From Eledone cirrhosa (lineage: Eukaryota), in contig OZ024743.1 in the NCBI GenBank assembly GCA_964016885.1, forward strand, positions 122,202,001-122,266,000: a stretch of DNA of 64,000 bases, in the 5' to 3' direction. Below are positions 1,495-64,000 of this stretch, piece after piece (position 1 is the stretch's first letter; each line of letters opens with the position of its first letter). The translations under genes and the position numbers were made by a program. The notes beneath the pieces are model-generated. The model was given only the letters and a program-made list of their open reading frames with translations. It was not told where the DNA came from and did no database searches.

Positions 1495-1672
1495 AAATAT
1501 TAATAAAATAGATGTTCTTGTGATCAATTAAATTTTATTATACATATTTCAGAGGTCATGTATCATTTTATTTTATCTGATGAGGACGTACTATTGAACT
1601 TGATTCAAGTACCTCTGAAATATGTATAATAAAATTTAATTGATCACAAGAACACCTATTTTATTAATATTT
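1495..1672. repeat. Fold-back inverted repeat (62-bp arms) beside (TA)n, containing an HHR
   Basis: 1495-1556 is the near-perfect reverse complement of 1611-1672. Confidence 0.9.
1570..1635 (+). ncRNA. Type I hammerhead ribozyme
   Basis: auuuuau / CUGAUGA (1577) / stem II ggacguac..guaccucu / GAAA (1617) / uaugua UA / auaaaau; 7-bp stem I. Confidence 0.75.
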
Positions 1673-1778
1673 GAATTTAATATTAATAACTCTGGAAAAT
1701 ATCTTTCTGTAGAGTGATTTCAATCTACTGTAAAACTCATTCTTTGATGTACTCATTGGATGTTGTTTAACTCTTAAA

Positions 1779-1809
<31 letters not shown>

Positions 1810-5954: not shown

Positions 5955-6139
5955 CGAGGGAAAAGTGGTAAGGAACCAGGTGGACCATAACGCACCAAAG
6001 TACTCAATACTTAGGGTAGTAGAGTGGGTAATAGGAGTAAGTAAGACCCCGACGGCTGAGCTCAAGCCGTTTCGACGGCTAATTGAGTACAGAATTAGCC
6101 GTCGAAACGGCTTGAGCTCAGCCGTCGGGGTCTTACTTA

Positions 6140-6142
<3 letters not shown>
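5953..6142. mobile_element. Family-B fold-back insert in (TA)n carrying an HHR 3' half
   Basis: Perfect 50-bp arms 6035-6084/6093-6142; each arm reads GAAA cggcu..agccg UC gggg on one strand; homologous to 31300, 41238 and 62838. Confidence 0.85.
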
Positions 6143-6185
<43 letters not shown>

Positions 6186-6188
<3 letters not shown>

Positions 6189-6420
6189 GAATAATCGAGT
6201 ATCGAAAAAACGGCGCACGAGTTCACGATAAACAAAATTGGATATGAGCGGCAGAGGGCTCAATAATTTAGATAAATCAGAGCTATAACTATCGTTAAAA
6301 TACCGTCACACATAGAACAAGTCTATAATCAACCATACGACCGAAAAATTGCGATCTGGAAGATTCGGGACACTCAGATAAAAAATCAATAAATCAATAA
6401 ATCAAATGAATGTAATAGTG
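6186..6420. repeat. Dispersed repeat next to (TA)n; copies at 61863-62090 and 62463-62577
   Basis: Shared tagaataatcgagt...gcagagggctcaataatt.agataaatcagagctataactatcgttaaa. Confidence 0.8.
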
Positions 6421-6572
6421 CCAATCGTATATGTAATATAGAATATGCTTCAATCAATCCCGGTTGGAGCTGTATAAATGAAGTAATTCCGTCGGAAAAG
6501 TCCAGGAAAAAAGAGTGCTCTATGGAGGTAACAGAGCTTAATAGTTATGTAATAAACAACATAAGGCAATTA

Positions 6573-6633
6573 TTTCATTTACCAGTGGTTTCTTAAAAGC
6601 AAAAAAATTTTGCTTTCAATCATCAGAATGAAA
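6573..6633 (-). ncRNA. Type I hammerhead ribozyme (left end of the large inverted repeat)
   Basis: Reverse complement of the 10763-10823 motif. Confidence 0.85.
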
Positions 6634-7300
6634 AAATCCTGGCGTATTTATTGACGTTGGATTTTAAAAACAAAAATGCAATCTATATGAAAGTGAGGCT
6701 GGAAAAGGAAGAAGGAAAGGAAAAATAAAATAAAAACACACATGCAAACACACACACGCACACACAATTATATACATACACATATATATATATGTATACA
6801 TACATACATACATACACACACACATATATACACACACACACACACACATATATATGTGTATATATATACATACACATACATACACACATAAATATCAACA
6901 TATCCATACATACACATACATATATATAATTGGAAATCAGTAAAATCGAATCTCTGGCGGTTTGCAGGTAAATTCGGCCTACTTATATGAAATGATGAGT
7001 TAGCAAAGCACTCGATAAGATAGGGCCTCAGAGTAATAACATACGTTTAAATAGCTTCACAAATCGAACATTGTGGTAAGCGAAACTAACACACAATACA
7101 TACCAAAGCAACGATAGAACTAATCAGGTTGAGAAAAGTACACCTGGACAAATCAAACGAACAGTCGTTTAAAGTGTTTCTTTGAATCCGAAATCAAATA
7201 TCAGACTTACGTGAATGGCAAGCTCGTGGTATTGGTGATCGAACAGAGGATTCAGTTTATCAACAGGTTTTCGTTCTATATATATATATATATATTTTCG

Positions 7301-7361
<61 letters not shown>

Positions 7362-7644
7362 TACACATACACATACATACATACATACACACAATCATAC
7401 GTATATACACACGTACATACATACACACATATATACATGCATACATACGCATGCACAAAAATAGAAATATATACACACACCTCTACATACTCACACACAA
7501 ATAAATATAAGAAAAAACACACGTGGTAAGCAATACACACAAATGCACGTACACATACATACGTAAAAATAAATACACACACACACTCTCACACATAAAT
7601 ATACATATACAAATACATAAACACATACATACGCATACACAAAT

Positions 7645-7681
<37 letters not shown>

Positions 7682-7710
7682 CACACACATACACATATAC
7701 ATATATACAC

Positions 7711-7789
<79 letters not shown>

Positions 7790-8376
7790 TATATATATAT
7801 ACACACACATACATACATAGCCATACAATTATACACATACATATCACAAACACGTACATACAAATACAAACACACATATATATATATATATGTGTAAACT
7901 CATTCTTAGATAATTCATATGAACCTTATTTAACTCTAAAATATATATATATATATATATACACACATACGCATACATACACATACGCATACATACTCAC
8001 ATACACATATATACACACACATATATACACACACATATATACATACACATACGTATGCATACGTACATACACACACACACACATATATATATACAACTCA
8101 ATATATAGATATATATAGATATAGATATATATATATGAGAAAGAACATAATTATTATATATATATAAAAAATTGTATATGTAAAAAAATATTGTATATAT
8201 AAAAATAAAAATAAAAATAAAAATAAAAATAAAAATAAAAATAAAAATAAAAATAAAAAGTTGGGAATACGACAAATAATAAATAAAAAATATATATTTA
8301 GGAAAGGGTATAAATGCTTATAGCAGATTTAGAGCACTCAACAAGTTCCTGGAGGCTATTATATATATACACACAA

Positions 8377-8562
8377 GGGTGGTGAATTGGCAGTATCGGT
8401 AGAGGGTCGGACGCCATGCTTTGCAGCAGAGTTACGTCCCTTTACGAACTCAGTTCAAATCCCGCCGAGGTTAACTTTGCCTTTCATCCTTACTGGGTTG
8501 ACAAAATAAAGTACCAGTAATGCACTGGGTAATTGCTAGCCTTGTGCCAAATGTAGAAACAA
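8377..8562 (+). mobile_element. tRNA-derived SINE with TSD
   Basis: B-box gttcaaatcc; core aactttgcctttcatccttac.gggt.ga.aaaataaagtaccag (resembles the MetaSINE core, from memory); TSD ttatatatatacacacaa. Confidence 0.85.
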
Positions 8563-8883
8563 TTATATATATACACACAAAACCATTATATAAAAAAAAT
8601 TCATATACACGCACAAATATACACACGCCCATACACACACATTAAAGTTATATATACACACATACATACATACATACATACACATATATACATATATATA
8701 TTAAAAAAAAATATATATACACACATATATACACACATACATACATACATATAAATATATACACACACGCGCACGAATACAACAGAAATATATAATATAT
8801 ACGATTATATATACATATACAATTACATACAGATAGATATAAACATACATACACATATCCATATACACACACATATACATACA

Positions 8884-8965
<82 letters not shown>

Positions 8966-9040
8966 CATATACGCAACACAAAAAAATTTAATATCTAGAA
9001 ATTAAAAAATTTTTGGTATGTGAAGAGTAAGGCAAAACTT

Positions 9041-9089
<49 letters not shown>

Positions 9090-10762
9090 GTGTGTATGTA
9101 TGTGTGTGTATATGGATATGTGTATGTATATATATGTGTGTGTATGTATGTTTATATCTATCTGTATGTAATTGTATATGTATATATAATCGTATATATA
9201 TATTTCTGTTGTATTTGTGCGCGTGTGTGTATATATTTATATGTATGTATGTGTGTATATATGTGTGTATATATATATATATATTTTATATATATATATA
9301 TATGTATGTATATATGTGTATGTATGTATGTGTGTATATATAACTTTAATGTGTGTGTATGGGGCGTGTGTATATTTGTGCGTGTATATGTATTTTTTTT
9401 AATATAATGGTTTTGTGTGTATATATATATATAATAGCCTCAGAAAAGGCTTGAGCTCTGCCGTGGGGTCAGACTTTTTACTATGTGTGTGTGTATATAT
9501 ATAGATATATATGTATATAGACGTAATTGTATGTGTGTGTGTATTTCTGTGGTTTGTTTTTTTTTGTGTGTGTCTGTGTATGTATATATATATGTGTATG
9601 TGTGTGTGTATATGTATAAGGGTGTATGTATATGCATCATTACATATAGTGATTTAATGATTTTTTTCATTGTTCTTTTACTCCAGGAACTTGTTGAGTG
9701 CTCTAAATCTGCTATAAGCATTTATACCCTTTCCTAAATATATATCTTTTTATTTATTATTTGTTGTATTCCCAACTTTTTATTTTCATTTTTATTTTTA
9801 TATATACAATATTTTTTAAATATACAATTTTTTATATATATATATATAATAATTATGTTCTTTCTCATATATATATATATTGAGTTGTATATGTATGTGT
9901 GTGTGTGTATGTACGTATGCATACATATGTGTATGTATATATGTGTGTGTAGGTATATATGTGTATGTGAGTATGTATGTATGTGTATGTATGTGTATGT
10001 GTATATATCTATCTATATATATATATATTTTAGAGTTAAATAAGGTTCATATGAATTATCTAAGAATGAGTTTTACACACATATATATATATATATGTGT
10101 GTGTTTGTATTTGTATGTACGTGTTTGTGATATGTATGTATATGTATGTGTATAATTGTATGGCTATGTATATATGTGTGTGTATATATATATTTATGTG
10201 TGTGTATATATGTATATGTGTGTGTATGTATTTGTGTATGCGTATGTATGTGTTTATGTATTTTATATGTATATTTATGTGTGAGAGTGTGTGTATGTAT
10301 TTATTTTTACGTATGTATGTGTACGTGCATTTGTGTGTATGTATGTACGTGTGTATATACGTATAATTGTGTGTATGTATGTATGTATGTATATGTATGT
10401 GTGTATGGCTATGTATGTGTGTGTATATATATATATATATATGTGTGTGGTTGTATATATGTATGTGTATGTATGGATATATTGATATTTATGTGTGTAT
10501 GTATGTATGTGTATATGTATGTGTATGTATATATAGACACATATATATGTGTTTGTCTGTGTGTGTGTATGTGTGTGTGTATGTATGTGTGTATGTATAC
10601 ATATATATATATATGTGTATGTATATAATTGTGTGTGTGTGTGTGTGTTTGCATGTGTGTTTTTATTTTATATTTCCTTTCCTTCTTCCTTTTCCAGCCT
10701 CACTTTCATATAGATTGCATTTTTGTTTTTAAAATCTAACCTCAATAAATACGCCAGGATTT

Positions 10763-10823
10763 TTTCATTCTGATGATTGAAAGCAAAATTTTTTTGCTTT
10801 TAAGAAACCACTGGTAAATGAAA
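10763..10823 (+). ncRNA. Type I hammerhead ribozyme (right end of the large inverted repeat)
   Basis: uuucauu / CUGAUGA (10770) / uugaaagcaaaa..uuuugcuuuuaa / GAAA (10804) / ccacugg UA / aaugaaa; all stems paired, GUA cleavage triplet. Confidence 0.85.
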
Positions 10824-10848
10824 TAATTGCCTTATGTTGTTTATTACA

Positions 10849-10895
<47 letters not shown>

Positions 10896-10943
10896 ATGAA
10901 ATGACAGGAGGCTGGATTTGTGTAAATCCTTGAAAGGTTTATT

Positions 10944-11001
10944 ATACTATGATCATTTCAATGACCGGGTTCCGTATGAATCCGGTGATATCATCAGGTA
11001 T
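10944..11001 (-). ncRNA. Type I hammerhead ribozyme with palindromic stem III (AUGAUCAU)
   Basis: Minus strand: auac CUGAUGA u..accggauuc..ggaacccggu..u GAAA ugauca UA guau AAUAAA; lies in 140 bp (10892-11031) apparently identical to 61609-61748. Confidence 0.75.
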
Positions 11002-11396
11002 TCGAAATATAATACGTGAATGTAATAGATAGATCTGGGTTTGATCCACTGTGTAGCATTTTGGGCAAGTGGCATTTATCAAAGCCTCAGGTCGACTCAT
11101 TCATTGTGAGTGAAATTGGGGAGATGGAAACTGTTTCAAAGCCTGTTGGATGTATTGTAATTATGATTCAATAGTTAAGCCATGCCACATACTGTGTCAT
11201 ACTGAATCTCACTGAAATACTCATGTCTGTGAAATTCTGAGCCATCTACTCATTAAGAGAAAAACAGATATTTCATCATCATCATCGTTTAATGTCTATC
11301 TTTCATGCTAGCATGGGTAGGATTTGAGATTTCAATCCAAATATTATAGATTCATGACTAAAAGCTCGACTGAATATATCTGAAGTAATATATATA

Positions 11397-12495: not shown

Positions 12496-13219
12496 AACAA
12501 CCGAAGGGAAGTAAATCTTGAAACACACAGAAGAACGCCTACACGAATGATTTCCCTTTGATGGTTATTCTTATCGGTTTTAAAAGTTGCGACGCGATGA
12601 CAAAGTCTCTACTCGAGCACTCGACTAGCTAAAAATACATTGAATAAAATATGTAAATATATAAAGCCAGACATAAAACACCAACGTATTTGAGCTAACG
12701 ACAAACACAAATCTATAATAAGGCATTGCCAATGAAAAAGAATGAAGAAAGTGTAAAATGAAAACAAAACTTCGTACAAATCCTATAAAGATTCGGAATT
12801 GGCACAGCAGACGATAATTACGTGTTTGTGATTGTGTGCGTATGTGCGCGCGAGTGTATAACCGTTCTTCTAATTATTTACTAGCTACTTTGTTCAATAT
12901 GAAAACATGTCATTCAGCCCATATATTAACTCGCTCTTTATCTCCTTTTTATTCACACAGTTTGTTGTCCAAAGGACCAACGAACCAACACACATCTGGT
13001 ATTATGTATTTGTTGTAGTATTTGTTCAGGCTCTTTACGTTCTGTGTTCAATAGAACAGTACTAGTCAAGTACTGGGGGTTGATTTAATCAACCCTTCCC
13101 TACCTTCAAAATTACTGGCCTTGTGCCTATGTTAGACACCATTATGTATAAAAGATTAGTGTTAAAAGTTTAGTAATGTTTGTTCTAGATTCAAAAAGGA
13201 TATTTATATCAAATACAAC

Positions 13220-14118
13220 TACGAGGGAAATACCAAATGTAAGGTATCCAAAGCGATGGGGACACAGAGAAACTGTTCGTACGGCTGTTGTGATTGGTGC
13301 TTCCTTCACTCCCAAACAAGCATGCGCGCGCTTCGCTGGGATGCTCAATCTTGGCTTGGCAGCCGTTGAGAATGGAGCCCCCGTTGAACGCTACCGCCAA
13401 GTGTGAAGTTCGCGCAGTTATTCGGTTTTTGAACGCAAAAGGCGTTGAACCGATTGAAATTAATCGCCAATTGACGGAAGTGTATGGACAGTCGTGCATG
13501 GATGTCAAAAACGTTCGCAAGTGGTGTAGAGAGTTTACAGCCGGTCGTACTGAAATTCACGACGAACAAAGGAGCGGGAGACCGTCAATTTCCGACGAGA
13601 CAGTCGCAATTTTTCCGTTAAAATCCTGTGGATGGTGCTTCGGGAAACCTCAGGAACCAAAATGCAGAGAGCATCCAGAGTGATCTGCCGATCTTTACGC
13701 ATGTTTTCCTCAACCTTTGCGACTGTCTCGTCGGAAATTGACAGTCTCCCGCTCCTTTGTTCGTCGTGGATTTCAGTACGACCGACTGTAAACTCTCTAC
13801 ACCACTTGCGAACGTTTTTGACATCCATGCACGACTGTCCATACACTTCCGTCAATTGGCGATGAATTTCAATCGGTTCAACGCTTTTTGCGTTCAAAAA
13901 CCGAATAACTGCGCGAACTTCGCTCTTGGCGGTAGCGTTCAACGGGAGCTCCATTCTCAACGGCTACCAAGCCAAGATTGAGCATCCCAGCGAAGCGCGC
14001 GCATGCTTGTTTGGGAGTGAAGGGAGCACCAATCACAACAGTGTTGCCAACAGCCGTACGAACAGTTTCTCTGCGTCCCCATCGCTTTGGAGACCTTACC
14101 TTTGGGATTGCCCGTGTA
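13220..14118. mobile_element. Palindromic mariner derivative made of two head-to-head 5' ends
   Basis: Transposase N-terminus (EVRAVIRFLNAK..EIHDEQRSGRPS) on both strands; arms ~13220-13608 and ~13717-14118; TA at both ends. Confidence 0.9.
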
Positions 14119-27002: not shown

Positions 27003-28640
27003 AAGTTCAGAGCGTCGCCCAGGACTTCAGAGATGCATCGATAATCCACCTATTCAAAAACAAAGGTAAAAATCTATCTGCGACAACTCTCGCGGCATCT
27101 CCCTTCTCTGTATTGCTGGTAAGATACCATCCCGTGTCATTCTCAACAGAATTACATCCAGACTTGTTGACGATATCTACCATGAAAATCAATGTGGTTT
27201 CCACTCTGGTCGGGGTACTATTGACATGCTTTTCTCTCTTCGCCAGGTCGCAGAGAAGGTTCGTGAAAGGAGCCAAGAGCAGTTTATGGTTTTTGTTAAC
27301 CTGACTAAGGCCTTTGATACTGTCAATCGCAAAGCTCTTTGGAAAATCTCGAAAAAGCTTGGCATACCTGATAATATGCTAAAAATCATCATAACCTTCC
27401 GTGAGGGCATGGAAGCATCAGTTATGTCAGATGGTGAATGCTCTGAAGCCTTTGCTGTTTCAAATGGTGCGAAGCAGGATTGTGTCATGGCTCCTGTCCT
27501 CTTTGCTTTGTTCTTTTCCGTAATGCTCCTGCATGCATTTGGCGATTTGGATACTGGTGTAAGATTTGAGTTCCGTACATTGGGTGGGCTATTGAACCAT
27601 CAGAAGTTTAAGGCTAAAACACTCACACGAACAAGTATCATTTGCGATTTACTGTTCTCTGATGATACTGCACTTGTTGCAACATCCCTCAAAAAGGCAC
27701 AGGAATTGAGGAACTGCTTTTCGCTTGCCTGTAAGGCTTTTGGTCTAATAATCAGCATCAAGAAGACTGAAGTGGTGCATCAACCAAAGCCACCCCCATG
27801 CATTCAATAGGCGTTAAACAGATGCGGTCAGATGAAAGGAATCTTCTTGCACCCATCACTATTGATGGCAAAGACCTGAAATATGTGAGTTATTTTACTT
27901 ACCTTGGCTGCAAGGTGAACCACTCTGCATCTCTGGAGGATGAGATTGTTAATCGCATCTCCAAGGCAACTGATGCTTTTGGCAAACTACATCACCACCT
28001 ATGGAGTGTCAGAGGTATATCCCTGAAAACAAAAGTTGCAGTTTATCGTGCACTTGTACTGACAACACTCTTATATGGCTCAGAGTCATGGACACTTTAC
28101 CGCACTCAGATCAGCTTGATGTCTTCCACAAACGCTGTCTTCGCTCCGTCTGTGGAAATGCACTTTCTGACAGAGTCTCCAATGCCGAACTGTTCACAAG
28201 GTACAACATTGGTGGGATTGAGTCATTTCTGATACAATCCCAACTCAGATGGGCTGGTTATATCCTACAGATGTCTGAGGACCGCATATCTAAGGTACTG
28301 TTATACAGTAAACTCCAGAATGGTGCGCATAGTGTGAGCAGGCCACTACTCCGATATAAGGACAAACTGAAGTACAATCTTAAGTTTGTCAACGTACCTC
28401 TTTCTTCGTTTGAAGCCGTGACTGCTAATCGTAAAAGGTGGAGAACTGTCTTCCACGAAGGTATAAAGAATTTTGAGAAATCTTGTTTAGCCCACCTCTG
28501 TGAGATACGATCTAACACCAGAGTCCGGTCAGGCATTCCTGCCTGCTTTGTTCAAGATCCTGTCACCTGTACCAAATGCGGATTATAGCTTATTTTTATC
28601 TCAGCGGAAACTAGGTGGATATGCAGTCTTGACAATCATC
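27003..28640 (+). mobile_element. RTE (BovB-like) LINE, 5'-truncated and frameshifted
   Basis: FVNLTKAFDTVNR, GAKQDCVMAPVLF, DLLFSDD, LLYGSESWTLY, QLRWAGY, RPLLRYKDKLK, terminal CxxC. Confidence 0.92.
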
Positions 28641-46752: not shown

Positions 46753-46821
46753 GTTTTATCTGATGAAAACACAAATATTATTGCATGATGATGTTTGTTT
46801 TTGAAATGCGCATAATAAAAT
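46753..46821 (+). ncRNA. Type I hammerhead ribozyme with palindromic stem III (AUGCGCAU)
   Basis: guuuuau / CUGAUGA (46760) / ~16-bp stem II / GAAA (46803) / ugcgca UA / auaaaau; (TA)n ~35 nt downstream. Confidence 0.8.
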
Positions 46822-51526: not shown

Positions 51527-51799
51527 ATACAATATATTAACAAATGGAAACTATATTTATAAAACCATATTTATTTCATTATACATATTTCAAGGACACC
51601 AAAGCAAATTATGGTGACTATCCGGGAGCTTCCAACAGAAATGGTCGCATTCTTTAAGGGTATGTCAATATTTGTTTATAAAACTGATCTATATTATATT
51701 TTATCTGATGAAAGCGCACCATAATTTGCTTTGGTGTCCTTGAAATATGTATAATGAAATAAATATGGTTTTATAAATATAGTTTCCATTTGTTAATAT

Positions 51800-58935: not shown

Positions 58936-59844
58936 TACGAAGTAGTGTCAAAAAGTTCCCGGACTAGTTATGTTTTTTTAAAATATATTTATCTAAGAAT
59001 ATATTTATCTAAGTTTTAACATTATCTCCTTCGAAATAATCTTCTTGCACAGCAATACACTGGTCCCAGCGTTTCTGCCTCTTTTGGAATCCGGTCTGGA
59101 AGTCGTTTTCCGTAAGGGAATCATAAACCTTCTGCGATTCGCTCTGGATCTTGGCAACGGTGTTAAAATGGTGCCCTTTGAGCTGCATTTTCAGTTTGTA
59201 AAAGAGACGGAAGTCCGCAGGTGCTAAATCTAGCGAATAGGGCGAGTGCGAAAGCGATACAACGTTCTTTTTAGCGAGAAACTCACAAGTGAGGAGAGCT
59301 CGGTGACAGGGTGCATTGTTGTCGTGAAGAATCCAATTCTTCGTGCTCCACAGATCCGATCTCTTTCGCCGAACGACTTCCCTCAAACGCATCAAAACAT
59401 CTGCAATATCGTTGATTGTCCCCCGACGATCCTCATGTACAAGCTGATTAAGTTTCTCCACATTTCCGGGTGTGACACTCGTGGCAGATCTTCCAGATTG
59501 CTCGTCATCTGCCAAGGACGTTCTTCCGCTTTTGAAGCGCCTGTGCCTTTGGAAACATTGCGCATGATTCATTGCCGAAACATGCTCAATTTCTTTGTAG
59601 CAGACCTCCCAAGCTGAATGCAAAATTTCACGTTGGCTCTTTGTTCATGACAAAATCGCAGGCTACAGCATACATGTAATCACAAAAACACAAATTTCAC
59701 AACTTGCGAAATGAAAACAGCGATGTCACTCGGCATACTGGCGCATGAAGCTCACTGTTAGCTCTCACTGTGCACGCAACCGTGTGTCGCCATCTGTTGG
59801 CGCGGTATAGAACTAGTCTGGAAACCTTTTGATAACACCTTGTA
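58936..59844 (-). mobile_element. Internally deleted mariner transposon
   Basis: Imperfect ~33-bp TIRs with TA ends; ORF 59009..59623 joins the HTH (DDEQSGRS) directly to WILHDNNAPCH and SPYSLDLAPADFRLF, lacking the first catalytic Asp region. Confidence 0.9.
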
Positions 59845-61565: not shown

Positions 61566-61614
<49 letters not shown>

Positions 61615-61660
61615 GAAATGACAGGAGGCTGGATTTGTGTAAATCCTTGAAAGGTTTATT

Positions 61661-61718
61661 ATACTATGATCATTTCAATGACCGGGTTCCGTATGAATCC
61701 GGTGATATCATCAGGTAT
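61661..61718 (-). ncRNA. Type I hammerhead, same sequence as 10944-11001
   Basis: Apparently identical 140-bp block adjacent to (TA)n. Confidence 0.75.
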
Positions 61719-62656
61719 TCGAAATATAATACGTGAATGTAATAGATAAAATCCATGGGGCTGAAAATCGAGGACTCGAGGGCGACCGCTATCCTGCTCC
61801 TTCAACCTCAGCCGGTCGCCCTCTATCCAGTGGTGAACCTCAAACCTGAATATATATATATATAATAGAATAATCGAGTTTCGGAAAATCAGCTCACGAA
61901 TTTACGATAAACAAATCCGACATGAGTGGCAGAGGGCTCAATAATTCAGATAAATCAGAGCTATAACTATCGTTAAAATACCAACACACAAAGATTATGC
62001 CTAAAATCACCCATGCAGCCGGAAAAGAACGACCAGGAAGATTCGGGTCACTCAAATAAAATATCAATAAATCAATAATTTATATGAATGTAAAAAACTT
62101 ACCCGAACCCACTAGATAGGTGGTAAATCTAGCTTCTTGGGTTTCTGCAATTCCTTAATCCGCCCCTATCAGCCCACATAAAAATATATAAGACTTCTAG
62201 GGAGCGGATGGACCGGAACACTTTATCAACGGGTTATGTCCAACGGATAAAGAAGTTAACTTTAGCTAGAACGCACATGGAGTCCAGCAAGGGAGATAAT
62301 CTCTATATTCGCGAAAAATTATCGGTAATGTGGAAAACACATATCGAATTAGAGTGCTCGATAGACATGTTAAAATAAACAGGAGCTATTCATCATTCAA
62401 TAGAATCGACAAAAAATGAACAATAAAATTAACTGGTCAATAGCTAAGTCTAGAACTAAATATAATAGAATAATCGAGTATCGGAAAATCAGCTCACGAG
62501 TTTACGATAAACAAATCCGACATGAGTGGCAGAGGGCTCAATAATTCAGATAAATCAGAGCTATAACTATCGTTAAATATATATATATATATATTGGTCT
62601 TTAAAGCGAAGAAATACCTGTGATGGTTGGAAGATCACTGACGAAGGACCACTTTA

Positions 62657-62735
<79 letters not shown>

Positions 62736-62837
62736 GTTTAAATAGCTTGACAAATTGAAAATTGCGGTAGGCAAAACCCAACCATACAATAACAAAGCAA
62801 TGAAAGAACTAATCAGGTTAAAAACAGAATATATATA

Positions 62838-63164
62838 TATAACAAAGAAAATGTGGTAAGATACCAGGTGGACCATAACGCACCAGAGTACTCGATACTT
62901 AGGGTAGTAGAGTGGGTAATAGGGAAAAAGTCAGGTTCCCGACGACTGAGCTCCAGCCGTTTCGTTAGTTCGCATCTGGGAAAAATGTCAAGACCCCGAT
63001 GGCTGAGCTCCGGTCGTTTCGACAGATATATCCGAACTAACGAAACGGCTGGAGCTCAGTCATCGGGGACCTGACTTTTTCCCTATTACTCCCTCTATTA
63101 CCCTAAGTATCGAGTACTCTGGTGCGTTATGATCCACCTGGTATCTTACCACACTTTCTTTGTT

Positions 63165-63167
<3 letters not shown>
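62838..63167. mobile_element. Family-B fold-back with ~135-bp arms
   Basis: 62838-62972 is the reverse complement of 63033-63167; the loop holds a third HHR-half copy; flanked by (TA)n. Confidence 0.88.
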
Positions 63168-63196
<29 letters not shown>

Positions 63197-64000
63197 CTAA
63201 GGCGGGTAAAATTCCCGAGATCCATGGACGAGTTCTCTCCAGCGGTCTCTGTCCCTCATTATCGCTGCCCTGTCCTGCGTCTCCAACAGACCAGTGTCTG
63301 TCCTTAGGGCATCAACATACGTTAACCTTGGTTTTCCTCTTCTAGTGTGTCCATGTAGGGGCTCCCACAGGAGCACTGAGTGCAATGTCAACTCTGGATG
63401 TCGGTGAGCATGTCCAGCTAACCTCAGTCTCCTCTGTGTCACTTTTGAGCTGACTTTTGGGATGCTCCCATACAGCTCTGAGTTTTTCATCCTCAGTGTA
63501 TACTGATTAATGTTCAGAGCCATCCTCAACATTCTCGTGTAGCATCCATCCACCATCTGAGTGAGTTTCTTGGTCAGTGTCCAAGTCCCAGACCCATACA
63601 GCAGCACAGACTCCACTACAGGACTCTGGCTTTACTGTAGCACCGGCTCAGAGCAGGAGGGTTAGGACGAAAAAGGTATCGGATGCTGAATTTGCCGACG
63701 ACATAGTTTTGGTGACAAATACAGTGAGGGAGGCAGAGGATTTGATGCGGGAGGTTGAGACTGAGAATGAATGAGACTAAAACAAAATATCTGGTAGAGA
63801 ATGTTGAGAAGCCAGAGGGGATCACTAATGTAGGCGGGAAGCCGCTAGAATTGGTTGAGGGCTTCCTGTATTTGGGAGCAAAGATTGGGAATACGGAAGA
63901 TGATGTGGTTGAGAGGAAGAGCAATGCCTGGGCGGCGTGCCACAGCTTGAGATCGGTGTGGAAGTCGGACCTTCGTAGAGACCTGAAAGTCCGCCTCTTC
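63197..64000. mobile_element. RTE family X LINE with 5' inversion
   Basis: Minus ORF 63197..63616 (VESVLLYG..HGSREFYPP) abuts the upstream RT part on the plus strand (QDSGFTV..FADDIVL..WKSDLRRDLKVRLF). Confidence 0.9.

What the first reader, a model, noticed from the sequence alone, without database searches (positions are those of the whole stretch)
6541..10855. 4.3-kb nested inverted repeat capped by two outward-facing intact hammerheads
Seen: matching, fully paired HHRs at 6573-6633 (-) and 10763-10823 (+) lie ~30 bp inside each end. The outer arms enclose a second inverted repeat (8352-8965/9045-9441). The arms are mostly degenerate (CA/TA)n but keep unique anchors, and differ by microsatellite slippage and by insertions in the left arm only (SINE 8377; block ~6928-7330). 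This divergence argues against an assembly artefact. Inference: a very large version of the small fold-back insertions, copied from a long microsatellite-rich UTR; if transcribed it could form kilobase dsRNA with a ribozyme-defined 3' end.
Basis: partly seen in the sequence, partly recalled or inferred. Interest (0 to 1): 0.75.

Follow-up and report, generated by a model that had tools for sequence, protein, structure and literature searches.

The report
Back-to-back Penelope retrotransposon ends
This 4.4-kb mirror repeat is two cut-short copies of the rear end of a common protein-coding jumping gene (Hydra-type Penelope element), joined back to back as is usual for these elements; the one unusual trait is a very long, microsatellite-like rear end that likely grew by swallowing scraps of other jumping genes.

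Summary
The inverted repeat and both hammerhead motifs are real. It is one interrupted repeat (6417-10855), not two nested ones. Each arm is a 5'-truncated 3' end of an abundant family (1,349 candidates, 40 scored, 97-100% identical). Longer copies carry a Penelope-like RT plus C-terminal GIY-YIG ORF with the Hydra-clade motifs I could check (RWK, DKT, CxCX5C, CxxC/CxH, no CCHH cysteines). Inverted partners flank 10 of 20 ORF-selected copies, a layout described for Penelope-like elements. The family has three fixed 3' ends (0, +62-70, +124 nt); 24 of 26 inverted pairs, this one included, join one short and one long end. All ends lie 39 nt or more past the predicted cut site, so the ribozyme does not set the DNA end; its 1-nt-loop stem III is the dimer type. 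Departures from published Hydra families: a 1.3-3.3-kb simple-repeat 3' UTR holding stubs of other TA-targeting repeats, and longer tails. No expression or long-read evidence was obtained. The scan found this class before on other pieces of this genome. Verdict: new member of a known kind, low interest.

The parts
6417..9037 (-). Left arm: 5'-truncated copy of the element's 3' UTR, HHR and 124-nt extension; no ORF
9038..10855 (+). Right arm: 5'-truncated copy of the same 3' UTR and HHR, ending at the short family end
6417..6540 (-). Tail plus 5' UTR (124 nt past the short end, about 58 nt short of the ORF's ATG); the same end recurs in 8 other loci, followed by (TA)n-like sequence
6573..6633 (-). 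Type I hammerhead motif, short palindromic stem III
10763..10823 (+). Type I hammerhead motif, predicted cut after A10816
9017..9046 (.). Centre of symmetry: 9-bp inverted pair around a 12-nt spacer; the left copy reaches 12 nt further 5' than the right
6928..7280 (-). Later insertion in a (TA)n run of the left arm: truncated copy of another high-copy repeat (3,418 candidates, 40 scored; 621-bp tandem unit at L127)
8377..8561 (+).
9442..9683 (+). Family UTR segment kept in the right arm, deleted from the left at a CTC microhomology
7430..7541 (-). Family UTR segment partly kept in the left arm, absent from the right
9436..9485 (+). UTR anchor resembling the end of the fold-back family at 6096-6146 (likely captured stub)
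9681..9776 (+). UTR anchor with free-standing relatives next to (TA)n at L037, L125, L128 (likely captured stub)
10021..10085 (+). UTR anchor resembling, inverted, the terminus of the HHR family at window 1577-1795 (likely captured stub)
10853..10895 (.). (TA)n run at the right end, the likely target

Best explanation
The repeat is two 5'-truncated copies of the 3' end of a Hydra-clade Penelope-like retrotransposon, facing outward and likely laid down in one insertion event. Shown: the unit is HHR, tail, 5' UTR, a 2.1-kb RT/GIY-YIG ORF, a long simple-repeat 3' UTR and the next HHR; copies end at three fixed sites next to (TA)n; inverted pairs almost always join a short and a long end. Inferred: the endonuclease cuts both strands at a TA site, each free DNA end primes reverse transcription from a different fixed start site downstream of the uncut ribozyme, both cDNAs stop early in the UTR and are joined at their 5' ends. 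Afterwards a SINE, a second repeat, two deletions and slippage made the arms differ. The locus has no ORF and is likely inert.
For: Family and ends. ORF and Hydra motifs. Inverted upstream copy in 10 of 20 and tandem pLTR in 5 of 20 ORF-selected loci. 24 of 26 pairs short+long (my hand tally; 18 of 20 without the six picked for the long end). Arms within a locus closer than between loci: 0.026 (20 pairs) vs 0.052 (4,075). Inverted 5'-truncated copy and one-sided tail described in PMC8557442 and PMC3846280; both-strand extension, two RT start sites and HHR cleavage dispensable in vitro in PMC11167929.
Against: No read evidence for this locus. The priming mechanism comes from a Poseidon-clade element, not Hydra. 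The window arms share no private variant in the 205-nt block, and one arm has 16 closer copies elsewhere; loci chosen for likeness to the window may shrink within-locus distances. One pair is T+T and one S+S; four more were dropped. Pfam gave 0 families for 4 ORF pieces. None of 20 ORF loci had an unbroken ORF. The near-symmetric centre also fits fold-back copying.
Confidence: 0.85

Rival explanations
1. Same element, but the second arm is a fold-back copy of the first cDNA (self-priming), stopped at the short end.
For: 12-nt offset at the window's centre; five short pairs start within 0-8 nt of each other; a copy cannot be longer than its template, which gives short+long; palindromic junctions read as self-priming in PMC3846280.
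Against: Many ORF-bearing pairs have 5' ends kilobases apart; the arm reaching further 5' carries the long end in only 7 of 11 informative pairs (hand count); no priming microhomology at the window's centre.
Confidence: 0.35
2. Two independent insertions, or a later DNA-level inverted duplication, happened to give the mirror.
For: No shared private variants; each arm has its own deletions.
Against: 5' ends meet within 12 nt; the two 3' ends are different fixed family ends, which a DNA duplication would not give; 24 of 26 pairs follow the rule.
Confidence: 0.07
3. A functional locus making kilobase dsRNA with a ribozyme-cut 3' end.
For: Arms 97% alike would pair if transcribed through; both cores intact; core intact in 73 of 91 copies.
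Against: Structure fully accounted for as a standard insertion; antisense arm would bury the HHR, monomer fold has 0.03 probability; related HHR needed protein to cleave; no host exon recognised among the window's long ORFs.
Confidence: 0.06
4. Assembly or fold-back read artefact.
For: No reads span the centre in what I could lay (junction skipped as repeat).
Against: Arms differ by an insertion with target duplication, a second insertion, reciprocal deletions and 3% substitutions, and end at different family ends.
Confidence: 0.02

Closest known systems
Hydra clade of C-terminal EN+ Penelope-like elements, incl. Hydra-1_Obim (Craig et al. 2021, PMC8557442)
   Same: Single RT + C-terminal GIY-YIG ORF with RWK, DKT, CxCX5C, CxxC/CxH; (TA)n target; type I HHR near the 3' end; stem III acca-c-tggt vs acca-a-tggt in Hydra-1_Obim. 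Penelope-13_HM is listed with an inverted 5'-truncated copy.
   Different: Distinct family (clearly homologous but different protein, by eye). Unit 4.1-4.7 kb in 3 measured tandems vs 1.1-3.0 kb listed; 3' UTR 1.3-3.3 kb of simple repeats; 12-bp stem II.
Inverted pLTR insertions with one-sided tail of EN+ PLEs (PMC8557442 Fig. 2; PMC3846280)
   Same: Inverted 5'-truncated copy, palindromic junction, extension at one end only.
   Different: Arms of 1.8-2.6 kb rather than about 200 bp; extensions of 62-70 and 124 nt rather than 30-40; three end classes.
PLE minimal/dimeric hammerheads (Cervera and De la Pena 2014, PMC4209133)
   Same: Type I, short palindromic helix III, long helix II; opposite-strand HHR pairs noted there 100-700 bp apart.
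   Different: Here 4.2 kb apart; activity untested.
Non-LTR retrozymes (bioRxiv 10.64898/2026.07.22.740005, abstract only)
   Same: PLE-related type I HHR.
   Different: Retrozymes are tandem non-autonomous units; this is an inverted pair from an ORF-bearing family.

Membership tests
Hydra-clade PLE | Single ORF, RT with C-terminal GIY-YIG EN | tested here: met
   ATG-to-stop 2,113-2,143 nt in 7 loci; RT (FDIVDFYPS, YRDDG) then EN (VVY...YVG) in broken frames, joined in L052 and L056. Pfam silent.
Hydra-clade PLE | RWK motif; GxKF/Y not conserved | tested here: met
   KRMRWKAM in L054, L070; no GxKF/Y seen by eye
Hydra-clade PLE | DKG changed to DKT | tested here: met
   VLSDKTKNLF
Hydra-clade PLE | CxCX5C linker; CxxC and CxH around E and N | tested here: met
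   CSCRKPDEC, CSLC-TTEK, LN...CPH
Hydra-clade PLE | No CCHH motif in EN | tested here: met
   no cysteine between VVY and YVG (by eye)
Hydra-clade PLE | (TA)n insertion and canonical HHR | tested here: met
   flanks; HHR
Hydra-clade PLE | Generally short (<3 kb) | tested here: not met
   units 4,102, 4,251, 4,657 bp; a stated tendency, not a diagnostic; the excess is all 3' UTR
Hydra-clade PLE | RT phylogeny groups with Hydra; no IFD | not tested
   published Hydra proteins were seen only as paper text; no tree built
PLE complex insertion | Inverted 5'-truncated copy; tail at one end | tested here: met
Type I hammerhead ribozyme | Conserved core and three stems | tested here: met
   stem III minimal; predicted dimer -32.6 vs 2 x -11.8 kcal/mol; below Rfam thresholds
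Type I hammerhead ribozyme | Self-cleavage | not testable with these tools
   needs in vitro assay
Naiad/Chlamys | N-terminal EN, no canonical HHR | tested here: not met
   EN is C-terminal, HHR present
Non-LTR retrozyme | Non-autonomous tandem HHR units | tested here: not met
   ORF upstream of UTR anchors in 20 of 20 ORF-selected loci; arms inverted

The most novel reading that the evidence does not exclude
A Hydra family whose 3' UTR is full of its clade's own (TA)n target has become a cargo trap: it doubled in length by catching ends of other TA-targeting elements and now spreads them and kilobases of CA/TA microsatellite through the genome as long hairpins. It uses three fixed RT start sites, with each paired insertion taking one short and one long site, the footprint of an asymmetric enzyme dimer.
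Probability: 0.3. Interest if true: 0.5.

Novelty: new member of a known kind. Interest (0 to 1): 0.22.

Why it matters
Mostly an annotation lesson: long 'degenerate microsatellite' tracts in this genome can be the conserved UTR of a retrotransposon, so the family exports simple repeats and kilobase inverted repeats. The three fixed ends and the short+long rule give a ready genomic readout for how Penelope-like elements build inverted insertions, which PMC8557442 names as an open question.

Tried and rejected
Rfam: nothing at gathering score; 109 weak matches, mostly miRNA models on simple repeats, none a hammerhead. Pfam: 0 families for 4 ORF pieces. Genome search with 10896-11031 gave 0 candidates though the window holds it twice, so it is a filter blank. 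Look-up of earlier notes by sequence gave one unrelated note. Rejected: 'nested' repeat; 6186-6416 as part of the element (tandem copies go on differently after 6417); 6928-7280 as an ORF fragment of this family (separate repeat); longer arm always carries the tail (7 of 11). Dropped from the pair tally: C14:22112257/22114178 (a stub copied inside both arms), C19:14602126/14608834 (78% subfamily), C8:39102282 (broken partner), C8:27780128 (odd end); counting the first two as short+short gives 24 of 28. C3:203761907 was read as short by eye. No family description turned up in five paper searches; Repbase, Dfam and subscription journals were not searched, and bioRxiv supplements were closed.

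Full report
Observation. Self-BLAST and repeat scans confirm an inverted repeat with pairs 6541-6929/10451-10855, 7316-8354/9681-10627 and a self-inverted 8564-9429. A motif scan found type I hammerheads at 10770-10816 (+) and 6626-6580 (-) with 7-bp stem I, 12-bp stem II and ACCA-C-UGGU stem III, and four more in the window. Rfam does not call them. Aligning the arms end to end shows one continuous mirror with indels: 47 substitutions in 1,482 columns, 3 of 205 in the HHR block; the CA/TA body is in register far above shuffles. The centre is a 9-bp inverted pair around 12 nt (9017-9046).

Family. The HHR block has 1,349 candidates in the 3.0-Gb own genome; the 40 scored are 97-100% identical. 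Upstream of the UTR, longer copies hold an RT and C-terminal GIY-YIG ORF. A search with that ORF gave 2,885 candidates. I fetched the 20 best of the 39 other loci: all 20 show UTR anchors after the ORF, 13 reach the HHR within the stretch and 4 more in extensions, 10 have an inverted upstream copy and 5 a tandem HHR-tail-ATG junction. ATG to stop is 2.11-2.14 kb in 7 loci; stop to HHR is 1.3-3.3 kb in 11 of 12 measured (one has an inserted HHR stub at 325); three units measure 4.1-4.7 kb. No copy had an unbroken ORF.

Clade. Craig et al. 2021 (PMC8557442; sections 6 and 11, passages, and parts of supplement file 1 read) define Hydra by RWK, DKT, CxCX5C, CxxC/CxH, loss of CCHH, (TA)n targeting and canonical HHRs. 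All of these are present here. Their HHR table shows the same 4-bp palindromic stem III in most Hydra families. Hydra-1_Obim (2,507 bp) is homologous but a different family by eye. No tree was built.

Ends. Copies stop at three sites: short (50 ends), +58-74 by my class limits, observed 62-70 (34), and +124 (8 classed by script; 9 loci), nearly always into (TA)n or (CA)n. The window's right end is short (10855) and its left end is the +124 site (6417), joined to an older repeat at 6186-6416. By hand, 24 of 26 outward pairs join a short with a longer end, one is long+long and one short+short; four were dropped (see Tried and rejected). Chance would give about half. Paired arms are closer than unpaired copies (0.026 vs 0.052; 11 of 20 pairs in the closest tenth), with exceptions, and the window arms share no private variant.

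Later changes. The left arm took a SINE-like insert with a 19-bp duplication and a 353-bp piece of another repeat and lost 9442-9683; the right arm lost the segment at about 7430-7541. These offsets created the look of nesting and argue against an artefact. Reads gave no direct test.

Mechanism. Shown: anatomy, ends, pairing rule. Inferred: both target strands are cut, each primes RT at a fixed site downstream of the uncut HHR, and the cDNAs are joined at their truncated ends. In vitro work on an anole Poseidon element (PMC11167929; passages and second half of the main text) found extension on both strands, two RT starts bounding the tail, and HHR cleavage not needed. The rival is fold-back self-priming (PMC3846280, passages), which fits the 12-nt offset here and five near-symmetric short pairs but not the 4 of 11 pairs whose shorter arm has the tail. 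Percentages for these two overlap: both keep the same identity of the element.

Ribozyme and dsRNA. The monomer HHR fold has probability 0.03; two copies fold into a cross-paired dimer at -32.6 kcal/mol; the arm duplex is -281. PMC4209133 (first quarter of the text) describes such dimer-type PLE HHRs and opposite-strand pairs. A read-through RNA would hold one sense HHR paired to its antisense. The core is intact in 73 of 91 copies, with column divergence 1.3% vs 3.2%, which speaks for the parent's function, not this locus's.

What is unusual. The UTR is about 60-70% TA/TG dinucleotide with 3-14 (TA)6+ runs. All three unique anchors I tested resemble ends of other TA-flanked repeats: 9436-9485 the 6096-6146 fold-back, 10021-10085 the terminus of the HHR family at 1577 (0 of 100 shuffles each), and 9681-9776 free stubs at L037, L125, L128. 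Growth by capture is inferred from this. I found no description of this family in five searches; an octopus repeat annotation lists 31 recent Penelope-like families without detail (PMC13282606, passages). The host is called an octopus in earlier scan notes; I did not establish it.

Earlier notes, read after I had stated the Hydra reading, report the same class on other pieces of this genome and gave the leads to Hydra-1_Obim and PMC3846280.

Verdict: real, explained, new member of a known kind; interest 0.22.

Noticed in passing
window 10896-11031 (-) and 61568-61748: A second hammerhead-like end of another family faces the same (TA)n run from the right; 99.4% identical to a copy at 61568-61748. 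Genome search gave a filter blank.
   Followed up: partly
window 6928-7280; L127:1480-2471: High-copy repeat (3,418 candidates) with a 621-bp head-to-tail unit ending in (TA)n; no HHR match to this family; could be a non-autonomous PLE-like unit.
   Followed up: partly
window 5960-6146; 62829-63199: Small fold-back family with a one-sided 71-nt extension, seen beside many loci (L032, L034, L039, L047).
   Followed up: partly
window 1577-1628, 1999-2044, 46760-46814, 51705-51753: Four more type I HHR motifs of other families, each ending in (TA)n shortly downstream.
   Followed up: no
L034:2989-4630; L049: Other PLE ORFs with the same CxCX5C and CxxC/CxH motifs inserted inside or near copies of this family.
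   Followed up: no
G000:C14:22112257 and 22114178; C13:26744819: A short-end stub of this family sits inside its own UTR and was copied into both arms, i.e. self-insertion carried along.
   Followed up: no
L043:5429-6688: A 420-aa open frame with sulfotransferase-like wording (VHKAGST; label recalled, not tested), probably a host exon.
   Followed up: no
window 13212-13963, 27070-28585, 59012-59644, 63200-63999: Decayed mariner-like and LINE-like ORF pieces (labels recalled); no host exon recognised in the window.
   Followed up: no
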